From: Candidatus Doudnabacteria bacterium RIFCSPHIGHO2_12_FULL_48_16
GTDB lineage: Bacteria; Patescibacteriota; Doudnabacteria; UBA920; O2-02-FULL-48-8
DNA length: 64,000 nt
Assembly (NCBI GenBank): GCA_001780035.1
Contig: MFEY01000007.1
Location: 331,146 to 395,145, forward strand
Direction of reading: 5' to 3'
The notes beneath the pieces are model-generated. The model did not search any database and had not been told where the DNA came from. It saw only the letters and a program-made list of their open reading frames with translations. Shown here in pieces: positions 10,245 through 63,799 of this stretch. How positions within the stretch are numbered: position 1 is the first letter of the stretch; each line of letters opens with the position of its first letter. Both the position numbers and the translations under genes were made by a program.

Positions 10245-10763
10245 ATGAACGAGATACTTAAAAAAATTATTTTAGACTTACTGCGGCAGATGGGTTTTGA
10301 GGCCGAAGTTTATGAGCGGATGGAAGAAGACCGCACGGTTTTTAATGTCAAAACTAGAGACGCTCAGCTGTTGATCGGCAAGCAGGGTGCGAATCTGCAG
10401 GCTCTGCAGCATCTGATCCGAATTTTGTTTCGCAAGCAAACCAATGATGACCCGTCTCGCCCGGCGCGAGCCGAGGCGGACCGGTTTCCGTTTGCCGTCG
10501 ATATCGATGACTACAAAGACCAGCGCAGTTTGTATCTGAAGGAGTTGGCGCGCAAGGCCGCCCACCACGTGCGCCAAACCCGTAAGCCGGTGTCACTCGA
10601 ACCTATGCCGGCGCATGAGCGCCGGGTGGTCCATTCTTATCTTTCACTTTATAATGATATCGGTTCCGAAAGTGTGGGGGTGGAACCGAATCGCAAATTG
10701 ATTATCAAGCCCAAACAAAAACCCAAGGACAAGGATGGGTTTAATTTCGTCGAAAATAGTTAA
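10245..10763 (+). CDS. jag: RNA-binding protein Jag/KhpB (KH + R3H domains)
   Basis: Canonical position after yidC. The R3H-like C-terminus ends ...IIKPKQKPKDKDGFNFVENS. Confidence 0.75.
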   Translation: MNEILKKIILDLLRQMGFEAEVYERMEEDRTVFNVKTRDAQLLIGKQGANLQALQHLIRILFRKQTNDDPSRPARAEADRFPFAVDIDDYKDQRSLYLKELARKAAHHVRQTRKPVSLEPMPAHERRVVHSYLSLYNDIGSESVGVEPNRKLIIKPKQKPKDKDGFNFVENS

Positions 10764-11545
10764 GCCCGGATCTTTAGTGGTTTAGAAATTTGCCAGATCA
10801 ATTCAAATTGGCCCTTTAGCATTTCAGCCAATTCTTCACTTTCAATCAAAAACCCGAAATTTTCCCGTGAGGATGAGATAAACCTCACGGTATTTTTGTA
10901 TATGGCGTACCCCAGGGAAAAATTAATGTTTGTTTGCGCGATTCGGACTTCCCTTTTGAATTCTGGGCCGAAAGCTAAGAATTTATGAACTTTGATAGAC
11001 GGGATTTGGTTTTGTGGCCAAATCACCTTGATTTTGATGTTGTTGGCTAATCTTTTTTTGTTGAATTCTTCTATAAAGTCAGGACCCAAAGTCTCCAACA
11101 CGTTCAGTATCGGCCAATAAGCCAAGAGGGTTATGTTTTCGTAGAGCAATAAATCCTTCATCATTTGCCGAAGTTCTTCCTGAGTTTCGAATAGCTGCAC
11201 CCGGGGCTGAAACAATTTACCATTCTTAGTATGTATACTTTTTAATTCATTCAAGGCTTGGCGGGCTTCAATAAGTTTATTCTCTTTTTCTTGGATTAAG
11301 AGATTGATTTTTTCGTATGGTGAAATAGCGAATAGTTTAATTCCATTTTTGAGAGTCTCAAAGACCAGACCCAGTTTAGTCATCTGGTCTAAAGAATTAT
11401 ATACTGTCGTCCGATTGGACTTTATTTGCTTAGCCAGAGAACTGGCTTTTTGAGGGCCGGTTAGAAGCAGGACCTCAAAAATTTGTATCTGAGAAGGATC
11501 CAAAGCAAATACTGAATAGATTGATTTTAAGTTCATTGTTGTCAA
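10760..11545 (-). CDS. TrmB-like HTH transcriptional regulator (paralog 1 of 5)
   Basis: N-terminal winged HTH (IQIFEVLLLTGPQKASSLAKQIKSNRTTVYNSLDQMTKLGLV) plus a ~170-aa C-terminal domain shared with 13630, 21130, 42443 and 55485. Confidence 0.6.
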   Translation of the reverse strand: MTTMNLKSIYSVFALDPSQIQIFEVLLLTGPQKASSLAKQIKSNRTTVYNSLDQMTKLGLVFETLKNGIKLFAISPYEKINLLIQEKENKLIEARQALNELKSIHTKNGKLFQPRVQLFETQEELRQMMKDLLLYENITLLAYWPILNVLETLGPDFIEEFNKKRLANNIKIKVIWPQNQIPSIKVHKFLAFGPEFKREVRIAQTNINFSLGYAIYKNTVRFISSSRENFGFLIESEELAEMLKGQFELIWQISKPLKIRA

Positions 11546-11600
11546 ATTGTCTCAACAGTCTTTACAATATATTATATTATTTGCATAATGTCAAATCAAC

Positions 11601-12263
11601 TTGATGGAGGACAACATGAAAAAACGATTGTTGGTAGTCGATCTGGGTTACACGCAGGGCCAATCGGTTATCGGCCAATTCCCCGAGTCTACGGAATTGA
11701 AGGTCGTGTATACATTGGAAGAGGCACATGAGGAAGTTCGGCCCAAATATGGTCATACGTGGGAAGAACTGTGGGCGCAGTATAGGCCGAACCATGCAGG
11801 AGGCAATACTCAATGGTGGCATCATTTCAAAATAAGACGTGAGAAGTTACTCCAATCGCGCCTGCCATACTGGGACGCAGTGTTGACTGACTTGTGGGAG
11901 AACGACACAGATCAGATTCCCGTAGGGTTTGGAATAGCCACGATCGCTGTATTCTCCGGGGCCAAATACGTAGGGATTATGCAAAGGCGTAGTCGCAAAG
12001 ACTCCATCTTTCATTGGCTGCCAGGTTTAGGTTTTGATAACCCATCATGGTTGCAGATCGAAGAAAGAAAAGTTATCGTGTCTAACGACCAACCATATGG
12101 GAAGGGGTGGTGTGAGCAGTGGAACGATCTTTTGAGAACATCGGTGGTCTCCAATGAATTCCCCACGGATAGTTACACGAACCAGCGGGTAAAGATGGAG
12201 GAAATGGGCGGCTATGAGGCAGCTGTAAACCACTACTGGCCAGATCTCATCAAACCTAAATAA
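11601..12263 (+). CDS. Hypothetical Trp/His-rich protein (ORFan)
   Basis: 220-aa ORF with good coding periodicity, divergent from TrmB paralog 1 and followed by an intrinsic terminator. I recognise no domain. Confidence 0.45.
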   Translation: MMEDNMKKRLLVVDLGYTQGQSVIGQFPESTELKVVYTLEEAHEEVRPKYGHTWEELWAQYRPNHAGGNTQWWHHFKIRREKLLQSRLPYWDAVLTDLWENDTDQIPVGFGIATIAVFSGAKYVGIMQRRSRKDSIFHWLPGLGFDNPSWLQIEERKVIVSNDQPYGKGWCEQWNDLLRTSVVSNEFPTDSYTNQRVKMEEMGGYEAAVNHYWPDLIKPK

Positions 12264-12278
12264 AGCCTAAATAAAAGC

Positions 12279-12316
12279 ATGGCTCAGTCGCTGACTGAGC
12301 CATGCTAGTTTTTATA
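12279..12316 (+). terminator. Intrinsic terminator (21-bp perfect palindrome GGCTCAGTCGCTGACTGAGCC followed by a T-run)
   Basis: GCATGGCTCAGTCGCTGACTGAGCCATGC followed by TAGTTTTTA. The same palindrome recurs at 13173. Confidence 0.6.
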
Positions 12317-12392
12317 TAGCGTTGGCGATAAAGATTTAATCTTGGATATAGAACAGACTGATCATGAACCAAAATAAGATCGCCAGATCGTT

Positions 12393-12431
12393 TTTGAAGT
12401 AAGGGACATCGACCAAGTCGTGCAGAATCAG
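12393..12431. pseudogene. Remnant of the 3' end of the O-antigen-ligase-like gene (copy of 14436-14474)
   Basis: TTTGAAGTAAGGGACATCGACCAAGTCGTGCAGAATCAG versus CTTGAAATAAGGGACATCGACCAAGCCGTGCAAAATCAC at 14436, about 34/39 identical. There is no intact reading frame. Confidence 0.45.
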
Positions 12432-12450
12432 TTGGTCATGAACCCGCCCG

Positions 12451-12520
12451 CAAATTGGTGATCCGGCCCAAACAAAAACCCAAAGATAAAGATGGGTTTA
12501 ACTTTGTGGAAAACAGCTAG
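12451..12520 (+). pseudogene. Remnant of the jag 3' end (copy of 10694-10763)
   Basis: Encodes PKQKPKDKDGFNFVENS* in frame, identical in protein to the Jag C-terminus, at about 85% nucleotide identity. It has no start or upstream ORF. Confidence 0.5.
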
Positions 12521-12527
12521 AAATTAA

Positions 12528-12556
12528 ATCGTCCCGATTAATCGGGACGATTTTAC
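12528..12556. terminator. Hairpin terminator (24-bp perfect palindrome ATCGTCCCGATTAATCGGGACGAT followed by a T-run)
   Basis: Lies immediately after the jag remnant and immediately 3' of brnA on the other strand. Confidence 0.5.
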
Positions 12557-12832
12557 TTAATCGCGCTTTGGCTGACCGTTTGAATATTGGTGGATCAGCG
12601 AAGCCATCAGAGTTTGATACGGAATACCTTTTTGTAGAGCCATCGCTTTTATCTTCAACAAGTCGCTTTCCGATAGGCGAATGTTAACATTTCTTGTTTT
12701 ATCTAAAGCAGCCTTCGCGTATGCTTGGTAACGCAATTTCTCAATTTTTTGATTAGAGACAGGCTTAACTTTACCCTTTTCATAGGATTTTATTATCTCT
12801 TTTTCGTAATCATCGAGTTCTAAATATTGCAT
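12557..12832 (-). CDS. brnA: BrnA-like (CopG/RHH-type) antitoxin
   Basis: 91 aa. ...NVNIRLSESDLLKIKAMALQKGIPYQTLMASLIHQY matches the BrnA antitoxin signature (xRLxxxxLxxxKxxAxxxGxxYQTxIxxxLxxY). It follows the brnT-like gene with a 3-nt gap. Confidence 0.65.
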   Translation of the reverse strand: MQYLELDDYEKEIIKSYEKGKVKPVSNQKIEKLRYQAYAKAALDKTRNVNIRLSESDLLKIKAMALQKGIPYQTLMASLIHQYSNGQPKRD

Positions 12833-12835
12833 AGT

Positions 12836-13111
12836 TTATTTATTAATTAAGTATTTCTTAGTCGCCTTACGGCTCGGGATAATAGTTTTTAAAAAGATTT
12901 TTTTATCATCTTCCACAAAAGGAACCAAGTAAGCGTAATGATTGATTTCAACCACAAAGATTTTTTGGTTGAGGTATTTTTTTGAGTTCGGGTGTTCTAG
13001 GATGTCGAGTAACCGACCCTCATTTAAGGCTATAATGATATACTCAAATCCTATACCGCGGCTATCTATTAGCTGAATATTTTTATCAACACTCCAGTCA
13101 AAATACTTCAT
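12836..13111 (-). CDS. brnT: BrnT-like toxin (DUF497 ribonuclease)
   Basis: 91 aa: MKYFDWSVDKNIQ...ILEHPNSKKYLNQKIFVVEINHYAYLVPFVEDDKKIFLKTIIPSRKATKKY. The pattern FxWDxxKNxxNxxKHGIxF ... ISARKATKKE is the BrnT hallmark. Toxin-first gene order is typical of BrnTA. Confidence 0.65.
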   Translation of the reverse strand: MKYFDWSVDKNIQLIDSRGIGFEYIIIALNEGRLLDILEHPNSKKYLNQKIFVVEINHYAYLVPFVEDDKKIFLKTIIPSRKATKKYLINK

Positions 13112-13171
13112 AAATATAGTTTATGACAAAGCATACTATTTGTCAATATATAGGTTCAAATAAAAAGGAAC

Positions 13172-13206
13172 GGCTCAGTCGCTGACTGAGCCGTGCCGCC
13201 GACTTT
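13172..13206 (-). terminator. Terminator for the 13207-13563 gene (second copy of the GGCTCAGTCGCTGACTGAGCC palindrome plus a GCCGCC hairpin)
   Basis: ACGGCTCAGTCGCTGACTGAGCCGT followed on the minus strand by TTCCTTTTTATTTG. Confidence 0.55.
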
Positions 13207-13563
13207 TTAAGTTGGCGGCATTCGGAACGAATCCAAGAGCGCGGCAAGAAGCTTCGATTTACCCAATTTCTTGATAGGCCCACTTGCTGTAAAGCGTGTT
13301 CCTGTCCAACGCACTATTTTGTGTGCGATCCGGCCGATTACGATGCCCATTGGCAGAGATATCGCGAAGGACACGTACCACGCATGTAGCCATCTCGCAA
13401 CAAAATCGTCAACGAAACCCAAGTTCCGCCAGGTCGCCACGCCGGTCACGAGTAGGCTCATGAACAGCATCCGGAGCACTTGCTCTGCGTACCAGACCAT
13501 TATTCCTCCTTTGTGTTGCCAGAGTGCAACGATATAGATTATCAGTTCTAGGAATATATACAA
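13207..13563 (-). CDS. Hypothetical small membrane protein
   Basis: 118 aa with 2-3 predicted transmembrane helices. The true start may be the internal Met (MVWYAEQVL...). Confidence 0.4.
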   Translation of the reverse strand: MYIFLELIIYIVALWQHKGGIMVWYAEQVLRMLFMSLLVTGVATWRNLGFVDDFVARWLHAWYVSFAISLPMGIVIGRIAHKIVRWTGTRFTASGPIKKLGKSKLLAALLDSFRMPPT

Positions 13564-13629: not shown

Positions 13630-14388
13630 ATGCCGCCAGTTTTTATGGCAGAATCCCAATTAGAGCGCATTCTTATCGAATATGGGCTTAGACAAAAACA
13701 AGCCAAGGTTTACTTGGCGTGTTTGGAAGTGGGTTCAGGCACCGTGCTGAAGATCGCCCAAGCCGCTGGCATGCCCCGTTCCACTACGGAACTGGAACTG
13801 AACCACTTGTTGGACAGCGGTCTGGTCTCCATGTATAAAAAGAAAAGCGTGAAGTATTTTAGTGCCGATGACCCTCATTCGCTTTTGAATTTACTGGAAG
13901 AAAAATCCGAACTAATCCAAAGAGCGCTGCCAAAATTTGTTTCTTTATATGGCAGCAATAAAACCAGGCCCTCAGTGCGATTTTACGAAGGCCGTCAGGG
14001 GTTGAAGCTAGTCTTAGGTGAAATACTTGTGGAAGCCAAGGAATTAATTTCACTTGGTTCAGCAGAGGATTTATTTAAAGTTTTGGAAGACTTTCCGGAA
14101 TTCGTAATGAAAAGAGTGGAACGTAAAATTCCTGTTAAAGTTATTCTTATAGATTCTCCGAAGGCCAGAGAGAGAAAGCTTCTGGGACCACAACAGCTTC
14201 GGCAGGTAAGACTGATACCGGAAACTTACAGTTATCACGGTCAATACAATGTTTGGAACAACAAGATCGCGATGTTTTCCTTTGGCCGTAATTTGTCAGC
14301 TGTGGTAATAGAAAGCCTAGAACTGGCGCAAATGCAAAAGGCTGCCTTTAATTTTATGTGGGACAGCCTGGAGGTCAAGAGAAATTAA
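13630..14388 (+). CDS. TrmB-like HTH transcriptional regulator (paralog 2 of 5)
   Basis: N-terminal HTH ILIEYGLRQKQAKVYLACLEVGSGTVLKIAQAAGMPRSTTELELNHLLDSGLV and the conserved C-terminal domain. Confidence 0.6.
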   Translation: MPPVFMAESQLERILIEYGLRQKQAKVYLACLEVGSGTVLKIAQAAGMPRSTTELELNHLLDSGLVSMYKKKSVKYFSADDPHSLLNLLEEKSELIQRALPKFVSLYGSNKTRPSVRFYEGRQGLKLVLGEILVEAKELISLGSAEDLFKVLEDFPEFVMKRVERKIPVKVILIDSPKARERKLLGPQQLRQVRLIPETYSYHGQYNVWNNKIAMFSFGRNLSAVVIESLELAQMQKAAFNFMWDSLEVKRN

Positions 14389-15587
14389 TTGTCTAAGTAA
14401 AATAGTGAAATCGCAAACCAAAACAGCACGGCTAAATCATTCTTGAAATAAGGGACATCGACCAAGCCGTGCAAAATCACAATCAGCAGGAATGCCGCGG
14501 CCGCCAGGCCCCACACCGTGGGGTGTTTTTTTTGCCGCTCGCCGACGGCACCTATGATCAGACCAAATGCCAGCAGCCCAAGCAAGCCGGTTTCGAGCCA
14601 GAAGTTCAGAAAAATATTGTGCGGATAATTGAGAATCTCTCCTTGAAAGTCGGCCGCGCTCAGAGTCGTGCGAAAACCGTGCAGTCCGTTGCCCAAAAAT
14701 GGTTCGTCTTGGATTTTTTGGATGCCAAGCCGCATGAGCTCCAGCCGGGCGTCACTGGAAGCATCGGAGACGGCGGAGACGAGCCGTTGCCGGATCGGAG
14801 CCACTCCCACTCCCAATGATCCGAGCAATACCAGGGTGACGATGGTCAGTACAGCCCGGCCGCTGTGGTTTTTGATCAGGAACAGAGTCAGGGTAATTGC
14901 AACCGCGAGCCAGGCGCCCCGGGAAAAGGTGAGAATCAAGGCCGCGGCCATGAGCAGGAGCCCCAGAATTTCCAGCCATTCGCGTTCAAATAACCGATAT
15001 TTTTTGTAAATTAAAATCGCAAACAGACCAAACAACGGCGCCAGGAACAAGGCCAGGGCATTCGGATAATCGAAAACCGAAGTTATGCGCTCCGGTTCTA
15101 TCCCCGTGCCCCAAAATCGGATTGGCAAGCCGGACAGGGTAAAATATTGGACGACGCCGAACAGCGAGATTAATCCGGAGCTCACAAACAATCCCTGCAG
15201 CGCCAATCTGATATTTGATTTTTCTTCCCATAGCAACACTAGCGCGTAAAATACCAAGACTGGTTCGATAAAGAAAGCCTTCAGTTCTCCCAGGGCCTTA
15301 AGTTTTTCCGGCGAGAGATAGGCGGCCACAGACGCGGCCAGTAAAAATAACCCGATGATCCAATTGAGCCGGCCGAGTTTGCGAAGCGGCCGGAAGTCCG
15401 GCTGTTGGGCCAGCAATCCGACAAGAAAAGCCAGGATTAAAACTTCAAGCAGAGTGGTTGGCAATCCCAGCAGCGTGAATCGGACTTGATAAGCCGGCAG
15501 CAAAAACAGCAGGACGGCCAAAGCCCAGCCAGGTTTTTTGAAAGCCAGATATAAGAAACAGACACTGATGACAAAAATGATCGTCAT
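14385..15587 (-). CDS. O-antigen ligase / Wzy-like polytopic membrane protein
   Basis: 400 aa with about 10 transmembrane helices and the Wzy_C-like motif ...LTFSRGAWLAVAITLTLFLI. Confidence 0.55.
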   Translation of the reverse strand: MTIIFVISVCFLYLAFKKPGWALAVLLFLLPAYQVRFTLLGLPTTLLEVLILAFLVGLLAQQPDFRPLRKLGRLNWIIGLFLLAASVAAYLSPEKLKALGELKAFFIEPVLVFYALVLLWEEKSNIRLALQGLFVSSGLISLFGVVQYFTLSGLPIRFWGTGIEPERITSVFDYPNALALFLAPLFGLFAILIYKKYRLFEREWLEILGLLLMAAALILTFSRGAWLAVAITLTLFLIKNHSGRAVLTIVTLVLLGSLGVGVAPIRQRLVSAVSDASSDARLELMRLGIQKIQDEPFLGNGLHGFRTTLSAADFQGEILNYPHNIFLNFWLETGLLGLLAFGLIIGAVGERQKKHPTVWGLAAAAFLLIVILHGLVDVPYFKNDLAVLFWFAISLFYLDN

Positions 15588-19561: not shown

Positions 19562-19826
19562 AATGAAGAACGCAGGAGCAAAGCGACAGACCGGTGGCGA
19601 GAGCGGAACCGATCGGCCATCGCGTCGCCGCACGCCGACCGAGCGCATGCCGACGCGGGAGCCGGGCACGGGCGGCGACGCGGATGACCAGGGCGGTCAG
19701 TCCGATCGCCCGGCGTGGGACACGCCGACCGACCGCTTGCCCACGAGCGACCCGCCGCCGGCCGATGAAGCGGATACGGCCGACGCGGCGCCCGATCGCG
19801 GACAGGCCACCACGGCGATCGCGTAG
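19562..19826 (+). CDS. Hypothetical intrinsically disordered, Pro/Asp/Arg/Thr-rich small protein inside a ~70% GC island
   Basis: 87-aa ORF MKNAGAKRQTGGESGTDRPSRRRTPTERMPTREPG...PTDRLPTSDPPPADEADTADAAPDRGQATTAIA. It has a GGGGG Shine-Dalgarno 5 nt upstream, its own promoter and its own terminator. Coding status is uncertain, because all three forward frames are open. Confidence 0.3.
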
Positions 19827-21129: not shown

Positions 21130-21876
21130 TTATTTTATAATCTTATCATACGGCTCCGCTTGTTTCCAAGCAAACTCAAATAATGTCCGAAGCGACTGAT
21201 GAATGGTTTTGCTTTGAATTAATACAGCAAAAATATGCGGTTGATAGGAAAAAAACACCACGTTGCCATCGAATAAGCAATTATCTGTGAGAAATTCTTC
21301 TCCGGGTTTGGTAAATCGTTGTTGGTAATATTCAGTATGAGTTACATTTTCCGCGAATTTGAGGTCCGCGGGATTTTGAGTCAAAATCTCCAAGACTTTA
21401 GTTTTTTTGGCCAGTGTGTTGGCAACTAACTTTTTTTCATAATCCGGATAGATGGTGACAAAATCTCGGATAGTGCCGAAAAAAATAACCTCTTTGGCAT
21501 TTAAAATTTTATCATATAAATCTTTTATCGCTTCTTTGCCTTCAAACAATAAAACCTGTGGTTTATTTTTTGGTTCATTATAGACGGCCAGTAGGTTAGG
21601 CATGAACCTTTTGACTAGCTCTTGTTTGCGATTCAGATCCGAGAGGATTTTGTCCGGCGACTCTGGCATGTATAAAATCTTCTTCGCTCGCGGTACTAGA
21701 GCGGCCAATCCCTTCTTCTGTAGCTCGTCGAGGATCAGATAAGTCGTGGGGCGCTTAGTCCCCGCTTTCTTGGCGATCCCTTCAACTGAAGAGGTACCCA
21801 ATTCCAATAAAGCCATATAGACCATGGCTTCTTTTTGGTTTAATCCGATTTTCTCCAGTATTTCTGCGATTTCCAT
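21130..21876 (-). CDS. TrmB-like HTH transcriptional regulator (paralog 3 of 5)
   Basis: EAMVYMALLELGTSSVEGIAKKAGTKRPTTYLILDELQKKGL HTH plus the conserved C-terminal domain. Confidence 0.6.
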   Translation of the reverse strand: MEIAEILEKIGLNQKEAMVYMALLELGTSSVEGIAKKAGTKRPTTYLILDELQKKGLAALVPRAKKILYMPESPDKILSDLNRKQELVKRFMPNLLAVYNEPKNKPQVLLFEGKEAIKDLYDKILNAKEVIFFGTIRDFVTIYPDYEKKLVANTLAKKTKVLEILTQNPADLKFAENVTHTEYYQQRFTKPGEEFLTDNCLFDGNVVFFSYQPHIFAVLIQSKTIHQSLRTLFEFAWKQAEPYDKIIK

Positions 21877-32212: not shown

Positions 32213-32286
32213 GGTCTGGTGGCCGAGCGGTTAGGCAGAGGTCTGCAAAACCTCGTACACCGGTTCAACTCCGGTCCAGACCTCCA
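32213..32286 (+). tRNA. tRNA-Cys (GCA), CCA-encoded
   Basis: Manual cloverleaf: acceptor GGTCTGG/CCAGACC, anticodon arm GAGGT-CTGCAAA-ACCTC, T-arm ACCGG-TTCAACT-CCGGT, discriminator U73 and CCA. Confidence 0.8.
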
Positions 32287-32307
32287 AAATTTTGGCGTCG
32301 GAACAAA

Positions 32308-32344
32308 ACCTCGTACACCGGTTCAACTCCGGTTGACGCCTCCA
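32308..32344 (+). other. 3' half of the second tRNA-Cys-like gene (anticodon-stem 3' strand, T-arm, acceptor TGACGCC, U73, CCA)
   Basis: ACCTCGTACACCGGTTCAACTCCGGTTGACGCCTCCA is identical to tRNA-Cys positions 39-65, followed by an acceptor strand complementary to 32132-32138. Confidence 0.4.
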
Positions 32345-32416
32345 GAATAATAAAATGTAGGTAAACGTAGGAGGATAGAGATTGTCTTTGTCTTTACCAT
32401 CAGATATACTTTTGTT

Positions 32417-32899
32417 ATGAGTAAAGACAGAAAAAAGAAGTGGACAGGAGACCAGTTAAAGAAAGCGGCACAGGAATCCTTTAGTATACGACAGGTAATC
32501 TTTAAGCTGGGTTTAATTCCTGCTGGAGGCAATTATGTTCAAATTCAAAATTATTTAAGGTCGCTTCATATTGATACATCTCATTTTAAAGGGAAGAGTT
32601 GGAATAAAGGGCTAACGGGATTAGTGCGAGCGAGTATGCCCATAGAGCAGATTCTTGTTAAAGAAAGTTATTATCAGAGTTATAAACTAAAAAAGCGTTT
32701 GTTTTCCCTCGGATTGAAGGCCAGGAAATGCGAAGAATGCGGTTGGGCAAAAACTACACCAGAAGGTCGGCTGCCACTAGAGCTAGATCATATTAATGGT
32801 AACCGTAACGACAATAGGTTAGAGAACCTAAGAGTTCTTTGTCCCAACTGCCATAGCTTGCAACCAACTCATAGAGCTAGGAACAAGAAGAAAAAATAG
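32417..32899 (+). CDS. HNH endonuclease (free-standing, homing-endonuclease-like)
   Basis: 160 aa. C-terminal zinc-ribbon HNH motif CEECGW...ELDHINGNRNDNRLENLRVLCPNCHS. Located between the tRNA-Cys locus and tRNA-Leu. Confidence 0.75.
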   Translation: MSKDRKKKWTGDQLKKAAQESFSIRQVIFKLGLIPAGGNYVQIQNYLRSLHIDTSHFKGKSWNKGLTGLVRASMPIEQILVKESYYQSYKLKKRLFSLGLKARKCEECGWAKTTPEGRLPLELDHINGNRNDNRLENLRVLCPNCHSLQPTHRARNKKKK

Positions 32900-42442: not shown

Positions 42443-43192
42443 TTAATTCACTCTTTTCCCTATTTTACCAACTTCCCAGGTAATCTCAAAGAAATTATTT
42501 AAAGTCTGAAACAAATCTTCGGATTCGATAATGATGCCGAAGTTTTCTTTTTTCGTGCCAATGATCGAAACCTTGCGATCATACAAATAAATGGTCATGG
42601 GGAAAATCATTTTTTGCGGCGCGTAGCGCAACTCGCGGAACTCTTTTTGGCTGCTCGGCCAGGTTTCTTCCACCTCTTTGATCTCGGAGCGGATGACCCG
42701 CAGCTTGATCTGGGCCGCAATCCGCTTGGCAACGTATTCGTCCATAAATTGTTTCCCGGGGGTTTTGTATAAGTCCTCCATGGATAGAATGCCGCGTAGC
42801 GTTTTGTTGTTCACGGTCAGAGTGTCTTTGAAAACTTCTTTCATACCCTCGACGCCCTCATAAAATTTAATCCGGGGCCGAAAACCGGCCGAATTAAACA
42901 ACAACTTTAGTTCGGGCAACGCCTCGTCGAGCTTGTGTTCCTGCTCTTTAAGCAACAATTTGAGCTGGATGGGGGGTTCGGCCTCGAAGATCAAGGTCCG
43001 GCCGCGTTGGATTTTCCGGATCAATCCCCGATGGGCCAAGTGTTCCAAGATTTCATTGGCCGTGGTGCGCGGAACCCCGGCTTTATCCGCAATGGTCCGA
43101 ACTTTGGCGCGGCCCAATTCCAAGGCCGCCAGATAAACCTCGGCTTTGGTTTTATGGATTCCTAATTCCCCCAGAACCAGTTTAATATCCAT
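42443..43192 (-). CDS. TrmB-like HTH transcriptional regulator (paralog 4 of 5)
   Basis: KAEVYLAALELGRAKVRTIADKAGVPRTTANEILEHLAHRGLI HTH plus the conserved C-terminal domain. Confidence 0.6.
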   Translation of the reverse strand: MDIKLVLGELGIHKTKAEVYLAALELGRAKVRTIADKAGVPRTTANEILEHLAHRGLIRKIQRGRTLIFEAEPPIQLKLLLKEQEHKLDEALPELKLLFNSAGFRPRIKFYEGVEGMKEVFKDTLTVNNKTLRGILSMEDLYKTPGKQFMDEYVAKRIAAQIKLRVIRSEIKEVEETWPSSQKEFRELRYAPQKMIFPMTIYLYDRKVSIIGTKKENFGIIIESEDLFQTLNNFFEITWEVGKIGKRVN

Positions 43193-55484: not shown

Positions 55485-56330
55485 TTGGAGTGGCCAATAC
55501 CACCACGAGGTGATAATTATCACCACAAAAATATGTATCAAGAAACTCTACAATCCTTGGGATTAAGCCCAAATGAGGCGAAAATTTATGAAACCCTGGT
55601 CGGGACTGGGGAGACGACTATTGGGGACATTGCCGTGGCCGCCAAAGTTCACCGGCGGAATGTTTATGATTCCGTTCAACGCTTGATTGAAAAAGGCCTG
55701 TGTTTTGAGGTTTTTTCGAGCGGCGGGAATTTATATAGCGCAGTCGATCCAGGTAAACTTTCCGAATTGGTGGCGGAAAAACAACAAAAATTAGAATTGA
55801 TTTTACCAGAATTGCAAAAGAAATTTCGGAAAGGAACTGAGAAGGAAGAAGCTTACATTTATAGAGGCTTTGAAGGTCAGAAAAATGTTTGGCGTGATAT
55901 ATTGCGAGTTGGTAAAGACAGTTATTTTATTGGAGCCAAAGGAGGTTGGTTTGATCCGCGGATTGATAAAACTGCCCGTGATGTTTTTTTCCGCGAAGCT
56001 AATCGAAAAAAAATAAAATTTACTCAACTATTTGATTATGAAGTTAAGGAGCAAATGCCGGACTTTCCGCGTTATTTTCCAGGAGACTTAAAATATCGCT
56101 TTCTCCCAAAAAAATATTCCACTACTTCCGGGGTTGGGATATTTGGGGATTATGTGATTACTTACACCGGGTTAGGGGTTATTGGCCGAATGGAGGAGAA
56201 TACTGTATTTTTTATTTTACACAGCAAAGATTTGGCAGAATCCTACCGGACTTGGTTTTGGTATATGTGGGAGCAGTCGGAGGAAGATAAAAAGCCACGT
56301 AGCGCGAATCACGAAACACGTAACAAATAA
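55485..56330 (+). CDS. TrmB-like HTH transcriptional regulator (paralog 5 of 5)
   Basis: EAKIYETLVGTGETTIGDIAVAAKVHRRNVYDSVQRLIEKGL HTH plus the conserved C-terminal domain. Confidence 0.55.
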   Translation: MEWPIPPRGDNYHHKNMYQETLQSLGLSPNEAKIYETLVGTGETTIGDIAVAAKVHRRNVYDSVQRLIEKGLCFEVFSSGGNLYSAVDPGKLSELVAEKQQKLELILPELQKKFRKGTEKEEAYIYRGFEGQKNVWRDILRVGKDSYFIGAKGGWFDPRIDKTARDVFFREANRKKIKFTQLFDYEVKEQMPDFPRYFPGDLKYRFLPKKYSTTSGVGIFGDYVITYTGLGVIGRMEENTVFFILHSKDLAESYRTWFWYMWEQSEEDKKPRSANHETRNK

Positions 56331-62809: not shown

Positions 62810-63799
62810 ATGGAAATTCAGGAAAATAAGGGCGAAATTATCATTTATAAGGCTGAATCAGGCCCAGAACTTCAAGTTAAACTTGAAGACGAAACTATTT
62901 GGCTTAATCAAGCCGAAATTGCCAGCCTTTTTGACACTGACCGTAGTTCTATAGCAAAACACATAAAAAATCTAATAAAATCAGGGGAATTAGAAGAAAA
63001 AAGCAATGTGCAAAATTTGCACATTGCAAATTCAGACAAACCGGTTAAGTTTTATAATCTAGATTTTATCTTATCCGTTGGTTATCGAGTAAATTCAAAG
63101 AGAGCTACCCAATTCCGTATTTGGGCCACTAAACACCTTCGGGATTATCTTTTGAAAGGCTATCTTGTCAATGAAAAGCGGCTAAAAGAGAATGAGGAAA
63201 TTAAGCTCAAGGAACTCCAGGCGGCTGTGGGACTCATGCAGCAGGCGCTGGAAGTCAAAAGACTTGAAGGTTATGAGAAAGAATTACTCAATATCATTAC
63301 GGATTATGCCAATACCTGGCTGACGTTTTATCAATTTGATGCCGGTCAGTTGCCGCTTCAGGGCAGCAAGAAGTCGGCAAAGTATTTGGAATACGATCAA
63401 ATCAAAAAAGCGATTATACGATTCAAACAACGGTTGCTGAAAAACGAAGAGGCCAGCGAATTGTTTGCTCAGGAAGTTTCGGAAAAATTGCTTTCACTGC
63501 TCGGTAATATCAAGCAGAGCTTGGGCGGGCAGGATGTTTATCCGACGCTGGAAGAAAAAGCCGCCCATCTGTTATACTTCGCGGTCAAAAATCATCCGTT
63601 CGTGGACGGCAACAAGCGGATCGGAGCGCTGCTGTTTATCTTGTTTCTGGTCGAGAATAATTATCTGCACAACAAAAAAGGCGAACGCAAGATCAATGAC
63701 GCGGCGCTGACTGCCGTTACTTTGTTGGTGGCGGAATCCAAACCGCAGCAGAAAGAGGTTATGATCAAGCTGATCGTTAACTTGATCAATAAAAAATAA
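62810..63799 (+). CDS. Fic-domain protein of the RhuM family
   Basis: RhuM-like N-terminus (...ATQFRIWATKHLRDYLLKGYLVNEKRLK...) and a C-terminal Fic motif HPFVDGNKRIGALLF. Confidence 0.8.
   Translation: MEIQENKGEIIIYKAESGPELQVKLEDETIWLNQAEIASLFDTDRSSIAKHIKNLIKSGELEEKSNVQNLHIANSDKPVKFYNLDFILSVGYRVNSKRATQFRIWATKHLRDYLLKGYLVNEKRLKENEEIKLKELQAAVGLMQQALEVKRLEGYEKELLNIITDYANTWLTFYQFDAGQLPLQGSKKSAKYLEYDQIKKAIIRFKQRLLKNEEASELFAQEVSEKLLSLLGNIKQSLGGQDVYPTLEEKAAHLLYFAVKNHPFVDGNKRIGALLFILFLVENNYLHNKKGERKINDAALTAVTLLVAESKPQQKEVMIKLIVNLINKK

What the first reader, a model, noticed from the sequence alone, without database searches (positions are those of the whole stretch)
12279..13206. BrnT/BrnA toxin-antitoxin cassette bracketed by two copies of one 21-bp palindrome and by duplicated gene-end relics (jag 3' end and ligase 3' end)
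The BrnT-like toxin (12836-13111) and BrnA-like antitoxin (12557-12832) lie between two copies of the perfect palindrome GGCTCAGTCGCTGACTGAGCC, at 12283 and 13173. Each copy acts as a terminator stem.

Directly inside the left copy are two relics. The first (12393-12431) copies the last ~40 nt of the O-antigen-ligase-like gene, whose real copy is at 14436. The second (12451-12520) copies the last 18 codons of jag (real copy at 10713-10763) and still encodes PKQKPKDKDGFNFVENS*. Both keep the orientation of the real genes.

The relic order is ligase-end then jag-end. That is the junction expected from a tandem duplication of the jag-to-ligase interval, or from insertion of a cassette that carried copies of both ends. 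Each half of the interval contains one TrmB-like regulator (10760-11545 and 13630-14388). This suggests a segmental duplication that later diverged, with one copy acquiring the TA module.
Basis: seen in the sequence. Interest (0 to 1): 0.55.

Follow-up and report, generated by a model that had tools for sequence, protein, structure and literature searches.

The report
Gene-end stubs in an insertion hotspot
The toxin-antitoxin pair sits in a patchwork island wedged between two core genes that normally touch, and the two "relics" are one back-to-back stub pair of foreign alleles carried on a transferable 1.8-kb module, not leftovers of a local duplication.

Summary
The sequence features are real, with small coordinate shifts. 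The proposed history is mostly wrong.

The genome is Ca. Doudnabacteria RIFCSPLOWO2_02_FULL_49_13. In relatives, jag/khpB and a Wzy_C ligase-like gene converge with overlapping stop codons. Here 3.6 kb of mosaic cargo separates them.

- **Relics.** They form a single junction: the last 96 nt of a ligase allele joined head-to-head to the last ~89 nt of a jag allele. Both are in frame and differ from the resident genes mostly at synonymous sites. Both resemble alleles in other strains more than the resident copies, so they are not decayed local duplicates.
- **Module M1.** The stub pair is the right end of a 1.76-kb module (TrmB-like regulator, orphan ORF220, hairpin, stubs) flanked by direct repeats of the jag end. 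The same module and junction occur in a lineage whose core genes are only ~70% identical. A close relative of that lineage has an empty site.
- **TrmB paralogs.** The two are not sister genes.
- **BrnT/BrnA.** This is an ordinary, separate module with its own operator.
- **Hairpins.** They look like intrinsic terminators, probably descended from the terminator of an ORF6N gene that commonly occupies this site.

How the module moves is inferred; no recombinase was found in the island.

The parts
10245..10763 (+). jag/khpB (KH + R3H), the left core gene. Its last ~80 nt form the left direct repeat of module M1.
   Evidence: Pfam R3H and KH_KhpA-B. yidC-jag / ligase-PBP synteny is conserved in more than 30 relatives.
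10760..11545 (-). TrmB-family regulator 1, the first gene of module M1. Its stop codon overlaps the jag stop in TTAA.
   Evidence: PF01978. It is 94% aa identical in lineage Y, where jag is only 69% identical. Identity jumps at the jag stop.
11604..12263 (+). ORF220, an orphan protein of module M1 with unknown function.
   Evidence: No Pfam or NCBIfam hit. Only 2 clusters among 5.8e9 proteins and 5 hits among 1.84e9 representatives. The AF2 model is unusable, pLDDT 38.
12276..12306 (.). Left hairpin, core 12281-12301. A terminator-like site on both strands, downstream of ORF220 and of the ligase stub.
   Evidence: 14-bp stem with T tracts on both strands; dG -28 kcal/mol, z about -6. Lineage Y carries a C-G to T-A compensatory difference.
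12336..12431 (-). Ligase 3'-end stub: the last 31 codons plus stop of a foreign Wzy_C allele, with no start codon.
   Evidence: In frame, 13 synonymous and 7 non-synonymous codon differences from the resident copy. 81% identical to the L017 allele against 71% to the resident. 96.9% identical to the stub in lineage Y.
12432..12520 (+). jag 3'-end stub: the last 26-29 codons plus stop of a foreign jag allele. It is the right direct repeat of M1. The clear homology starts at 12440.
   Evidence: 10 synonymous and 3 non-synonymous codon differences. 94% identical to the L007 jag end. 97.3% identical to the stub in lineage Y, with conservation ending 7 nt before the stop. The ESVGH motif is also present in the natural jag of lineage Y.
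12521..12558 (.). Second, unrelated hairpin (AATCGTCCCGATTAATCGGGACGATT) between the jag stub and the BrnA stop.
   Evidence: Inverted repeat I9; dG -19 to -22 kcal/mol, z about -5. The scan did not list it as a terminator, and it is absent in lineage Y.
12557..12832 (-). BrnA-like antitoxin (CopG/RHH type).
   Evidence: PF12441 26.8 bits (cutoff 28); NCBIfam BrnA E = 0.033. It is always paired with the toxin in relatives.
12836..13111 (-). BrnT-like toxin, upstream of the antitoxin with a 3-nt gap.
   Evidence: 6926 homologs. 33 of 36 aligned members hit PF04365. pLDDT 92 with a RelE/YafQ-like fold, TM 0.65 to toxin 7vd7_A.
13112..13150 (-). TA promoter with a palindromic operator, TGACAAA-N8-TTTGTCA. 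This is the upstream edge of the TA module.
   Evidence: -35 TTGACA and -10 TAAACT. The motif is conserved in L021 and L022, whose upstream contexts differ.
13159..13196 (.). Right hairpin, core 13172-13192, with an AAATAAAAAG flank. A terminator-like site for the DUF2798 gene. It probably derives from the terminator of an ORF6N gene.
   Evidence: Terminator-like on the minus strand. The same hairpin directly follows the ORF6N stop in L126 and lies downstream of ORF6N in L007.
13207..13563 (-). DUF2798 membrane protein, part of the right-hand module.
   Evidence: PF11391 E = 4e-15.
13630..14388 (+). TrmB-family regulator 2. Its stop codon overlaps the ligase stop in TTAA.
   Evidence: PF01978. 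L126 has the same 'hairpin, minus-strand gene, TrmB2, ligase' layout with a 69% identical TrmB2.
14385..15587 (-). Wzy_C / O-antigen-ligase-like gene, the right core gene. It is allelic within the population.
   Evidence: PF04932. L017 and L020 are identical to the window up to 14373 and then carry a different ligase allele.

Best explanation
The flagged stretch is the centre of a 3.6-kb mosaic island. The island sits in an insertion and recombination hotspot between two convergent core genes near oriC: jag/khpB and a Wzy_C ligase-like gene.

**Shown**
1. In relatives the two genes abut with overlapping stop codons, or are separated by variable cargo. The most common cargo is a single ORF6N gene.
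2. The two 'relics' are one back-to-back junction: a ligase allele cut 96 nt before its end, joined to a jag allele cut about 89 nt before its end.
3. The stubs are foreign alleles that diverged from the resident ones while still functional.
4. The stub pair is the right end of a 1.76-kb module, M1, made of TrmB1, ORF220, the hairpin and the stubs. M1 is bounded by direct repeats of the jag 3' end.
5. M1 with the identical junction occurs in a second lineage, Y, whose core genes are about 70% identical. A close relative of Y has the empty site.
6. BrnT/BrnA is a separate, ordinary type II TA operon with its own promoter and operator.
7. The hairpins look like intrinsic terminators.

**Inferred**
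- One illegitimate join created the stub pair. It happened when an island (jag, TrmB1, ORF220, hairpin, ligase) was cut out of, or recombined out of, a donor genome. The candidate routes are homology-facilitated illegitimate recombination or circularisation.
- M1 then spread by recombination between its own jag stub and the host's jag terminus, pushing the earlier occupant (TA, hairpin, DUF2798, TrmB2) downstream.
- The two hairpin copies are homologous terminators carried by two juxtaposed modules. They are not the ends of a cassette.
For: **Ancestral or empty state.** L110/L111, L115, L121, L125, L127, L130, L136 and L151 have jag and ligase abutting.

**Variable cargo at the same site.**
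- ORF6N alone in L113, L116, L129 and L131, and in L152/L153 (ligase seen only in part).
- An ORF6N pseudogene, the hairpin and TrmB2 in L126.
- TA next to the ligase in L021.

**Stubs.**
- Geometry and reading frame.
- Neutral decay rejected, P < 1e-5 each; joint P = 0.0014 even if only half the differences were neutral.
- Closer to alleles in L007, L017 and L020 than to the resident copies.

**M1 transfer.**
- L132 and L146 overlap at 99.9% and together define lineage Y.
- In Y, yidC is 71% and jag 69% aa identical to the window. TrmB1 is 94% aa, ORF220 86% nt, and the stubs 97% nt identical.
- Identity rises at the jag stop and falls 7 nt before the stub's stop.
- Homology between empty-site L151 and occupied L132 ends at the same GGAAAA, 7 nt before the jag stop.

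**TA module.**. Shared operator but different flanks in L021 and L022.

**Hairpins.**

**Composition.** GC is patchy: TA 0.34 and TrmB1 0.38, against 0.45-0.6 in the flanks.

**Precedent.** 3'-end displacement with homology-facilitated illegitimate recombination is described for T6SS, rhs and CDI arrays (PMC5361080).
Against: - Only two M1-carrying lineages were found.
- The link between jag of lineage Y and M1 rests on a single metagenomic contig (L132), so a chimeric assembly cannot be excluded.
- The donor genome with intact 'B-type' jag and ligase flanking TrmB1-ORF220 was not found.
- No recombinase lies in the island. None turned up in the other window ORFs scanned, but that scan was not exhaustive.
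- No M1-less variant was seen among the contigs that carry the identical BrnT, so there is no sign of ongoing excision.
- The stubs are more conserved between the two lineages (5 differences in 170 nt) than the rest of M1 (12%; Fisher P = 1e-4). A purely passive scar does not predict this.
- An old 185-bp tandem duplication of the abutting junction, followed by cargo insertion and allele replacement, would give the same geometry.
Confidence: 0.62

Rival explanations
1. In-situ tandem duplication of the whole jag-to-ligase interval. The two copies then diverged, and one acquired the TA module.
For: The ligase-end | jag-end order is the junction a tandem duplication makes. Each half has a hairpin copy and a TrmB-family gene. 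Both hairpins carry an AAATAAAAG flank reminiscent of an ORF6N tail, so an ancestral jag-ORF6N-hairpin-ligase unit could have been duplicated.
Against: - TrmB1 and TrmB2 are not sister paralogs and are oppositely oriented.
- The halves share no other homology.
- The stubs differ from the resident ends mostly at synonymous sites, and neutral decay is rejected.
- The stubs are closer to other strains' alleles than to the resident ones.
- The stub pair occurs in lineage Y next to an unrelated jag end.
Confidence: 0.1
2. M1 is an integrase-less 'homing' cassette. It loops out as a 1757-bp circle by recombination between its flanking jag-end repeats. It re-integrates at the jag terminus of new hosts, and the stub pair serves as its attachment or homology site and is kept by selection.
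For: - Direct repeats of the jag end lie 1757 nt apart.
- The junctions in the window and in lineage Y look like circular permutations of one another, offset by 7 nt.
- Empty and occupied sites are seen in close relatives.
- The stubs are the best-conserved part of M1.
Against: - There are only two lineages.
- No circular junction and no excision polymorphism were observed.
- No recombinase was found. ORF220 is uninformative.
- Homology between the jag end of lineage Y and the stub is limited to about 10 nt.
- The conservation could reflect a younger recombination tract rather than selection.
Confidence: 0.18
3. The two hairpins are recombination sites (attC-, REP- or IS200/IS605-like) that delimit a mobile 891-bp unit carrying the TA genes.
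For: There are two identical 21-nt cores in direct orientation, 891 nt apart. The hairpin recurs at module boundaries in L007, L126 and L146.
Against: - Each copy has its own self-complementary flanks, which argues against a crossover inside the core.
- Both have T tracts and lie at gene ends, as terminators do.
- In relatives the TA module moves without the hairpin.
- The 891-bp unit contains chromosomal stubs.
- There are only two copies in 64 kb, and none in the viral or metagenome collections searched.
- No Y1 transposase or integron integrase was seen in the ORFs scanned.
Confidence: 0.05
4. The arrangement is a metagenome assembly artefact that joins two strain variants of the island in tandem.
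For: Assemblies do break at jag and at the ligase end where strains differ: L007 against L015, and the ends of L004 and L027.
Against: The full arrangement is 100% identical in many independent assemblies from ENA, JGI, NCBI and Logan, on contigs up to 231 kb here and 431 kb. The stubs are 20-29% diverged from the resident ends, so they could not mislead an assembler.
Confidence: 0.02

Closest known systems
3'-end (C-terminal) displacement arrays in rhs, CDI and T6SS effector-immunity loci, attributed to homology-facilitated illegitimate recombination (PMC5361080 and the references it cites)
   Same: An incoming module, anchored by homology in a conserved gene, brings a new 3' end and shifts the old 3' end downstream as an in-frame, start-less stub. 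Composite arrays are then passed around by ordinary homologous recombination.
   Different: The genes here are housekeeping or envelope genes (jag/khpB and Wzy_C), not polymorphic toxins. Stubs of both flanking genes are fused head-to-head. The pair travels with the module into another lineage. No immunity logic explains why it is retained.
Integration hotspots between conserved core genes in bacterial chromosomes (own knowledge: Oliveira, Touchon and Rocha 2017; not checked here)
   Same: One interval between syntenic core genes holds different accessory modules in different strains. Empty and occupied states coexist.
   Different: This case is in an ultra-small CPR genome, next to the dnaA-rpmH-rnpA-yidD-yidC-jag origin cluster. 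The modules are very small, one or two genes each, and no integrase or prophage is present.
Genomic islands integrated at gene or tRNA 3' ends by tyrosine integrases (att direct repeats)
   Same: A module is flanked by direct repeats of the target gene's 3' end, and the element supplies a replacement end.
   Different: No integrase is present. The repeats are 20% diverged over about 80 nt rather than forming a short identical core. The element also carries a stub of the gene on the far side.
BrnT/BrnA type II toxin-antitoxin system (own knowledge: Heaton et al. 2012, Brucella abortus)
   Same: A toxin of about 90 aa (PF04365-family, RelE-like fold) is encoded upstream of an RHH/CopG-type antitoxin. 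The two genes are tightly spaced and share a palindromic operator in the promoter.
   Different: This is a divergent Patescibacteria subfamily. Both proteins score just under the curated Pfam thresholds on their own. Activity was not tested.

Membership tests
BrnT/BrnA type II toxin-antitoxin | Toxin belongs to the BrnT (PF04365/DUF497) family | tested here: met
   The query alone scores 19.2 bits, E = 1.6e-3, below the cutoff of 34.5. However, 33 of 36 homologs at 63-87% identity hit PF04365, best E = 3e-9.
BrnT/BrnA type II toxin-antitoxin | Toxin has a RelE-like ribonuclease fold | tested here: met
   The AF2 model has pLDDT 91.9. The top Foldseek hits are YafQ, HP0894 and a TA toxin, 7vd7_A, at TM 0.65. 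A profile of the family hits 7vd7_A at E = 0.019.
BrnT/BrnA type II toxin-antitoxin | Antitoxin is an RHH/CopG-type BrnA | tested here: inconclusive
   PF12441 scores 26.8 bits against a cutoff of 28. NCBIfam BrnA gives E = 0.033. PDB CopG gives E = 0.67.
BrnT/BrnA type II toxin-antitoxin | Toxin gene upstream of antitoxin in one operon, with an autoregulatory operator | tested here: met
   The two genes are 3 nt apart. A sigma-70-like promoter overlaps TGACAAA-N8-TTTGTCA, which is conserved in L021 and L022.
BrnT/BrnA type II toxin-antitoxin | RNase toxicity neutralised by the antitoxin | not testable with these tools
   This needs expression assays.
Tandem segmental duplication of the jag-ligase interval | Junction where the end of the unit is followed by the start of the unit | tested here: met
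   The ligase stub at 12336-12431 abuts the jag stub at 12432-12520.
Tandem segmental duplication of the jag-ligase interval | The two copies have homologous, collinear interiors | tested here: not met
   TrmB1 and TrmB2 share 28% identity, are oppositely oriented, and each is closer to TrmB4. Only the hairpin is shared.
Tandem segmental duplication of the jag-ligase interval | Duplicated ends are each other's closest relatives and decay neutrally | tested here: not met
   The stubs are closer to the L007, L017 and L020 alleles. Neutral decay is rejected.
Intrinsic (Rho-independent) terminator | G+C-rich stem-loop followed by a T tract, downstream of a gene | tested here: met
   The left copy qualifies on both strands and the right copy on the minus strand. 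z-scores range from -3.6 to -8. The stem is kept by a C-G to T-A change in lineage Y relative to the window, and by a G-U wobble in L126.
Intrinsic (Rho-independent) terminator | Termination of transcription in vivo | not testable with these tools
   This needs Term-seq or RNA-seq.
Integrase-mediated island at a gene 3' end | Direct repeats of the target gene's 3' end flank the element | tested here: met
   10683-10762 and 12440-12519 are 80% identical and 1757 nt apart.
Integrase-mediated island at a gene 3' end | A tyrosine or serine recombinase is encoded in or next to the element | tested here: not met
   None of the island ORFs matches a recombinase. ORF220 is an orphan with no informative relatives. 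None was found among 20 other window ORFs, in a scan that was not exhaustive.
Integron cassette / attC | IntI integrase nearby, and imperfect attC hairpins with extrahelical bases | tested here: not met
   No integrase was found. The hairpins have perfect 11-14-bp stems, a 3-nt loop and T tracts.
3'-end displacement / homology-facilitated illegitimate recombination arrays | An old 3' end is displaced downstream of an inserted module as an in-frame, start-less stub | tested here: met
   The jag stub lies 1757 nt downstream of the functional end. It is in frame, keeps its stop codon and has no usable start.
3'-end displacement / homology-facilitated illegitimate recombination arrays | The locus encodes polymorphic toxins with immunity genes | tested here: not met
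   The flanking genes are jag/khpB and Wzy_C. The locus works like such an array but is not a member of the class.

The most novel reading that the evidence does not exclude
M1 would be a previously undescribed kind of minimal, recombinase-less mobile cassette. It would carry fused stubs of both core genes that flank its home site. It would use them, especially the jag stub, as portable homology or an attachment site. It would leave as a circle through its flanking jag-end repeats and home to the jag terminus in distantly related Doudnabacteria. The unusually high conservation of the stubs would reflect selection for transferability.
Probability: 0.18. Interest if true: 0.65.

Novelty: new variant of a known kind. 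Interest (0 to 1): 0.4.

Why it matters
Candidate-phyla-radiation (CPR) bacteria have tiny genomes and few recognisable mobile elements, and how they exchange genes is poorly known. This locus shows a well-defined hotspot next to the replication-origin gene cluster. One- and two-gene modules (regulators, a TA pair, an ORF6N gene) are swapped there between strains and even between lineages about 30% diverged. The swaps leave datable scars, namely gene-end stubs. If the stub-bearing module really homes by its own stubs, that would be a simple, integrase-free route of horizontal transfer, testable with existing Rifle aquifer metagenomes. If it does not, the locus is an ordinary, though clean, example of 3'-end displacement at a recombination hotspot.

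Tried and rejected
- **Exact hairpin scan of metagenome contigs:** 0 hits, although JGI samples known to hold the genome exist. The collection evidently lacks them, so the result is uninformative.
- **Viral-contig scans** for the hairpin with any loop, a 21-mer from the ligase stub, TrmB1 and ORF220: nothing.
- **Plasmid BLAST of 10757-13206:** only a 150-nt TA-like match.
- **Genome-contig scan with jag:** mostly distant Firmicutes and Chloroflexi. Only L030 was useful.
- **Rfam on the window and on key loci:** nothing in the 10-15 kb region.
- **Folding the stub pair as RNA:** z = -1.35 and -1.9, so no sign of a structured RNA.
- **Single-sequence PDB searches for BrnT and BrnA:** only noise.
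- **ORF220 as a hidden recombinase:** there is no evidence either way. It has no families, a remote homolog lies beside envelope genes, and the model has pLDDT 38.
- **Campbell integration of a TA circle at the hairpin:** rejected, because each hairpin copy keeps its own self-complementary flanks and because the stubs travel with TrmB1-ORF220 rather than with the TA.
- **An apparent recombination breakpoint at ligase -95 in L017/L020:** this was a BLAST extension effect. The real switch is at 14374.
Full report
**1. What is in the sequence**

The window comes from Ca. Doudnabacteria bacterium RIFCSPLOWO2_02_FULL_49_13 (GCA_001777855.1).

Gene order around the finding:
- dnaA, rpmH, rnpA, yidD and yidC lie upstream.
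- jag/khpB, 10245-10763, plus strand.
- TrmB-family regulator 1, 10760-11545, minus strand.
- ORF220, 11604-12263, plus strand.
- Hairpin L.
- The two relics.
- A second, unrelated hairpin, 12521-12558.
- BrnA-like gene, 12557-12832, minus strand.
- BrnT-like gene, 12836-13111, minus strand.
- Hairpin R.
- DUF2798 gene, 13207-13563, minus strand.
- TrmB-family regulator 2, 13630-14388, plus strand.
- Wzy_C/O-antigen-ligase-like gene, 14385-15587, minus strand.
- A class A PBP gene lies downstream.

The 21-mer GGCTCAGTCGCTGACTGAGCC occurs exactly at 12281-12301 and 13172-13192 and nowhere else in the window. Chance expectation is 0.00.

The relics are the two longest direct repeats in the window:
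- 12336-12430 matches 14385-14479 at 72% identity.
- 12440-12519 matches 10683-10762 at 80% identity.

The whole arrangement is 100% identical in many independent assemblies from four sources, on contigs up to 231 kb here (431 kb). It is therefore not an assembly artefact.

**2. The relics are in-frame stubs of foreign alleles**

Translated, the jag stub reads EPARKLVIRPKQKPKDKDGFNFVENS*. The resident copy reads EPNRKLIIKPKQKPKDKDGFNFVENS*. The ligase stub reads LILHDLVDVPYFKNDLAILFWFMISLFYIQD*. The resident copy reads VILHGLVDVPYFKNDLAVLFWFAISLFYLDN*.

The jag pair has 16 nt differences and 3 amino-acid changes. The ligase pair has 28 nt differences and 7 amino-acid changes. Neither has an indel or an internal stop.

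I simulated the same number of random substitutions on the resident sequences. That gives on average 10.8 and 16.8 amino-acid changes. The probability of the observed pattern is below 1e-5 for each stub. If only half of the differences were neutral, the joint probability is still 0.0014. Most of the divergence therefore arose while both copies were functional gene ends.

Matching alleles circulate in the same aquifer community:
- Strain L007 has a core identical to the window. Its jag has the window's sequence up to 37 nt before the stop and the stub-type sequence after that. It is 94% identical to the stub over 65 nt.
- Strains L017 and L020 are identical to the window up to 14373. They then carry another ligase allele whose C-terminus...FMISLFYIQD*, is stub-type. 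It is 78-82% identical to the stub, against 71% for the resident copy.

**3. The interval is an insertion hotspot**

In more than 30 Doudnabacteria loci the synteny yidC-jag facing ligase-PBP is conserved.

| State between jag and ligase | Loci |
|---|---|
| Genes abut; stop codons overlap in TTAA where read (L110) | L110/L111, L115, L121, L125, L127, L130, L136, L151 |
| 75-430 nt of non-coding DNA | L118/L119, L137, L030/L134, L135, L140 |
| Single ORF6N (PF10543) gene | L113, L116, L129, L131; also L152/L153 (ligase seen only in part) and several partial contigs |
| Degraded ORF6N, the hairpin with one mismatch directly after its stop, a minus-strand gene, then a 69% identical TrmB2 overlapping the ligase | L126 |
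| BrnT-BrnA directly downstream of the ligase | L021 (BrnT 87% identical) |

The L126 layout is the same as the right half of the window's island.

**4. The stub pair belongs to a transferable module**

Contigs L132 and L146 overlap at 99.9% and together define lineage Y.

| Feature | Identity of lineage Y to the window |
|---|---|
| yidC | 71% aa |
| jag | 69% aa, about 70-75% nt |
| TrmB1 | 94% aa, 92% nt |
| ORF220 | 86% nt |
| Hairpin region | 88% nt |
| Ligase stub | 96.9% nt |
| jag stub | 97.3% nt |
| BrnA (diverged allele) | 68% nt |

- Identity rises to over 90% immediately after the jag stop. The same ligase-stub | jag-stub junction follows the hairpin.
- Conservation ends 7 nt before the stub's stop, and a diverged BrnA follows.
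- The jag end of lineage Y itself...ESVGHEPNRKIVIKNKAREKKPGDAFDFLENS*, is unrelated to the stub. The stubs therefore came in with the module.
- L151 is 93% identical to L132 over yidC-jag and has the empty site. Its homology with L132 ends at the same GGAAAA, 7 nt before the jag stop.

Module M1, about 10761-12520, is thus a discrete unit. It is flanked by direct repeats of the jag end 1757 nt apart, and it is present at the same site in two lineages about 30% diverged.

The junctions in the two hosts are offset by 7 nt. That is what recombination of a circular or terminally repeated M1 with the host jag terminus would give. This step is inference.

**5. An unexplained point**

The stubs differ between the two lineages at 5 of 170 nt. 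The rest of M1 differs at 132 of 1083 nt (Fisher P = 1e-4). Either the stub segment shares a more recent recombination history, or it is under selection. The few differences include a Gly-to-Asp change at an otherwise invariant ligase position and a Pro-to-Ser change, which looks like drift. The stub region shows no RNA-structure signal and no Rfam match.

**6. The segmental duplication model fails**

TrmB1 and TrmB2 are 28% identical (72 bits). Each is closer to the paralog at 42443-43192 (111-112 bits), and they point in opposite directions. The two halves share no other similarity. The junction geometry alone remains. One illegitimate join explains it equally well, between a ligase allele 96 nt before its end and a jag allele about 89 nt before its end.

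**7. The TA module**

- The toxin has 6926 homologs.
- 33 of 36 aligned relatives hit PF04365.
- A family profile hits a solved TA toxin, 7vd7_A, at E = 0.019.
- The AF2 model has pLDDT 92 and a RelE/YafQ-like fold.
- The antitoxin scores 26.8 bits against a 28-bit cutoff for PF12441.
- The toxin gene is first and the gap between the genes is 3 nt.
- The promoter carries TGACAAA-N8-TTTGTCA, which is conserved in L021 and L022. Their upstream DNA is otherwise different.

The TA pair is therefore an ordinary, self-contained module whose edge is its operator, not the hairpin. Its GC content (0.34) is the lowest in the region.

**8. The hairpins**

- Hairpin L has a 14-bp stem with T tracts on both sides. 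It would terminate ORF220 and, originally, the ligase whose stub lies 34 nt away.
- Hairpin R has an 11-bp stem and would terminate the DUF2798 gene.
- Each copy has its own complementary stem extension. Lineage Y differs from the window's left copy by a compensatory C-G to T-A change. L126 keeps pairing through a G-U wobble.
- In L126 the hairpin directly follows the ORF6N stop. In L007 it lies downstream of ORF6N with an inverted loop.
- Hairpin R is preceded by TTCAAATAAAAAG, which resembles the ORF6N tail TTTAAATAAAAG. This suggests, but does not prove, that both copies descend from the terminator of an ORF6N gene later replaced by other cargo.
- Nothing indicates that the hairpins act as recombination sites.

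**9. Comparison with known systems**

The closest described process is 3'-end displacement by incoming modules, attributed to homology-facilitated illegitimate recombination. It leaves strings of orphan 3' regions in rhs, CDI and T6SS effector-immunity loci (PMC5361080).

Four things differ here:
- The genes involved are not polymorphic toxins.
- Stubs of both flanking genes are fused head-to-head.
- The fused pair is carried between lineages.
- There is no integrase.

I could not find a recombinase in the island. ORF220 is an orphan.

**10. Verdict**

The TA and terminator calls hold. The segmental-duplication history is rejected in favour of a mosaic hotspot island that contains a transferable, stub-bearing module. 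The mechanism of transfer is inferred, not shown. Interest is moderate.

Noticed in passing
window 32213-32348 and 32417-32899: A tRNA at 32213-32283 is followed, 58 nt downstream, by an 89% identical copy of its 3' half (32304-32348). An HNH endonuclease gene lies next to it. This is another gene-end stub, typical of an integration or homing scar.
   Followed up: partly
window 10760-11545, 13630-14388, 21130-21876, 42443-43192, 55485-56330: Five full-length TrmB-family regulators lie in 64 kb. All are only 22-31% identical to one another. That is unusually dense for a tiny genome.
   Followed up: partly
L007 10535-11909 (JGI 3300025317, Ga0209541_10000796): A co-occurring strain has a core identical to the window but a different island after jag. 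It holds ORF6N, the hairpin with an inverted loop, and then GC-rich minus-strand genes (a 58-aa acidic protein and a 133-aa protein). The contig ends there.
   Followed up: partly
relatives L113, L116, L129, L131, L152/L153, L112, L117, L122-L124, L128: An ORF6N (KilA-N-like DNA-binding) gene is the commonest occupant of the jag|ligase gap across Doudnabacteria. In L126 it is a pseudogene. Its function at this site is unknown.
   Followed up: no
window 14374-15587 compared with L017 and L020: The Wzy_C ligase gene is allelic within the population. Two strains are identical to the window up to 14373 and then carry a different ligase allele (about 66% nt identity over the one body segment that aligns in L020). 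This suggests surface-glycan allele switching by recombination.
   Followed up: partly
L030 663-1084 (also L134; similar gaps in L135, L140, L138): Some relatives have a 330-740 nt spacer between jag and ligase. In L030 it is GC-rich, has no convincing ORF and has no Rfam match.
   Followed up: no
window 13194-13220: A second strong hairpin, GCCGCCGACTTTTTAAGTTGGCGGC, directly abuts hairpin R and overlaps the DUF2798 stop codon. Gene callers disagree on the DUF2798 start, giving 68, 97 or 118 aa.
   Followed up: no
window 62810-63799: A RhuM-family plus Fic/DOC-domain protein lies near the window's end. It may be another mobile or defence-related gene.
   Followed up: no
window 19631-19775: Two GC-rich 55-nt copies, 75% identical and 90 nt apart, lie inside overlapping ORFs. 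This may be an internal protein repeat.
   Followed up: no
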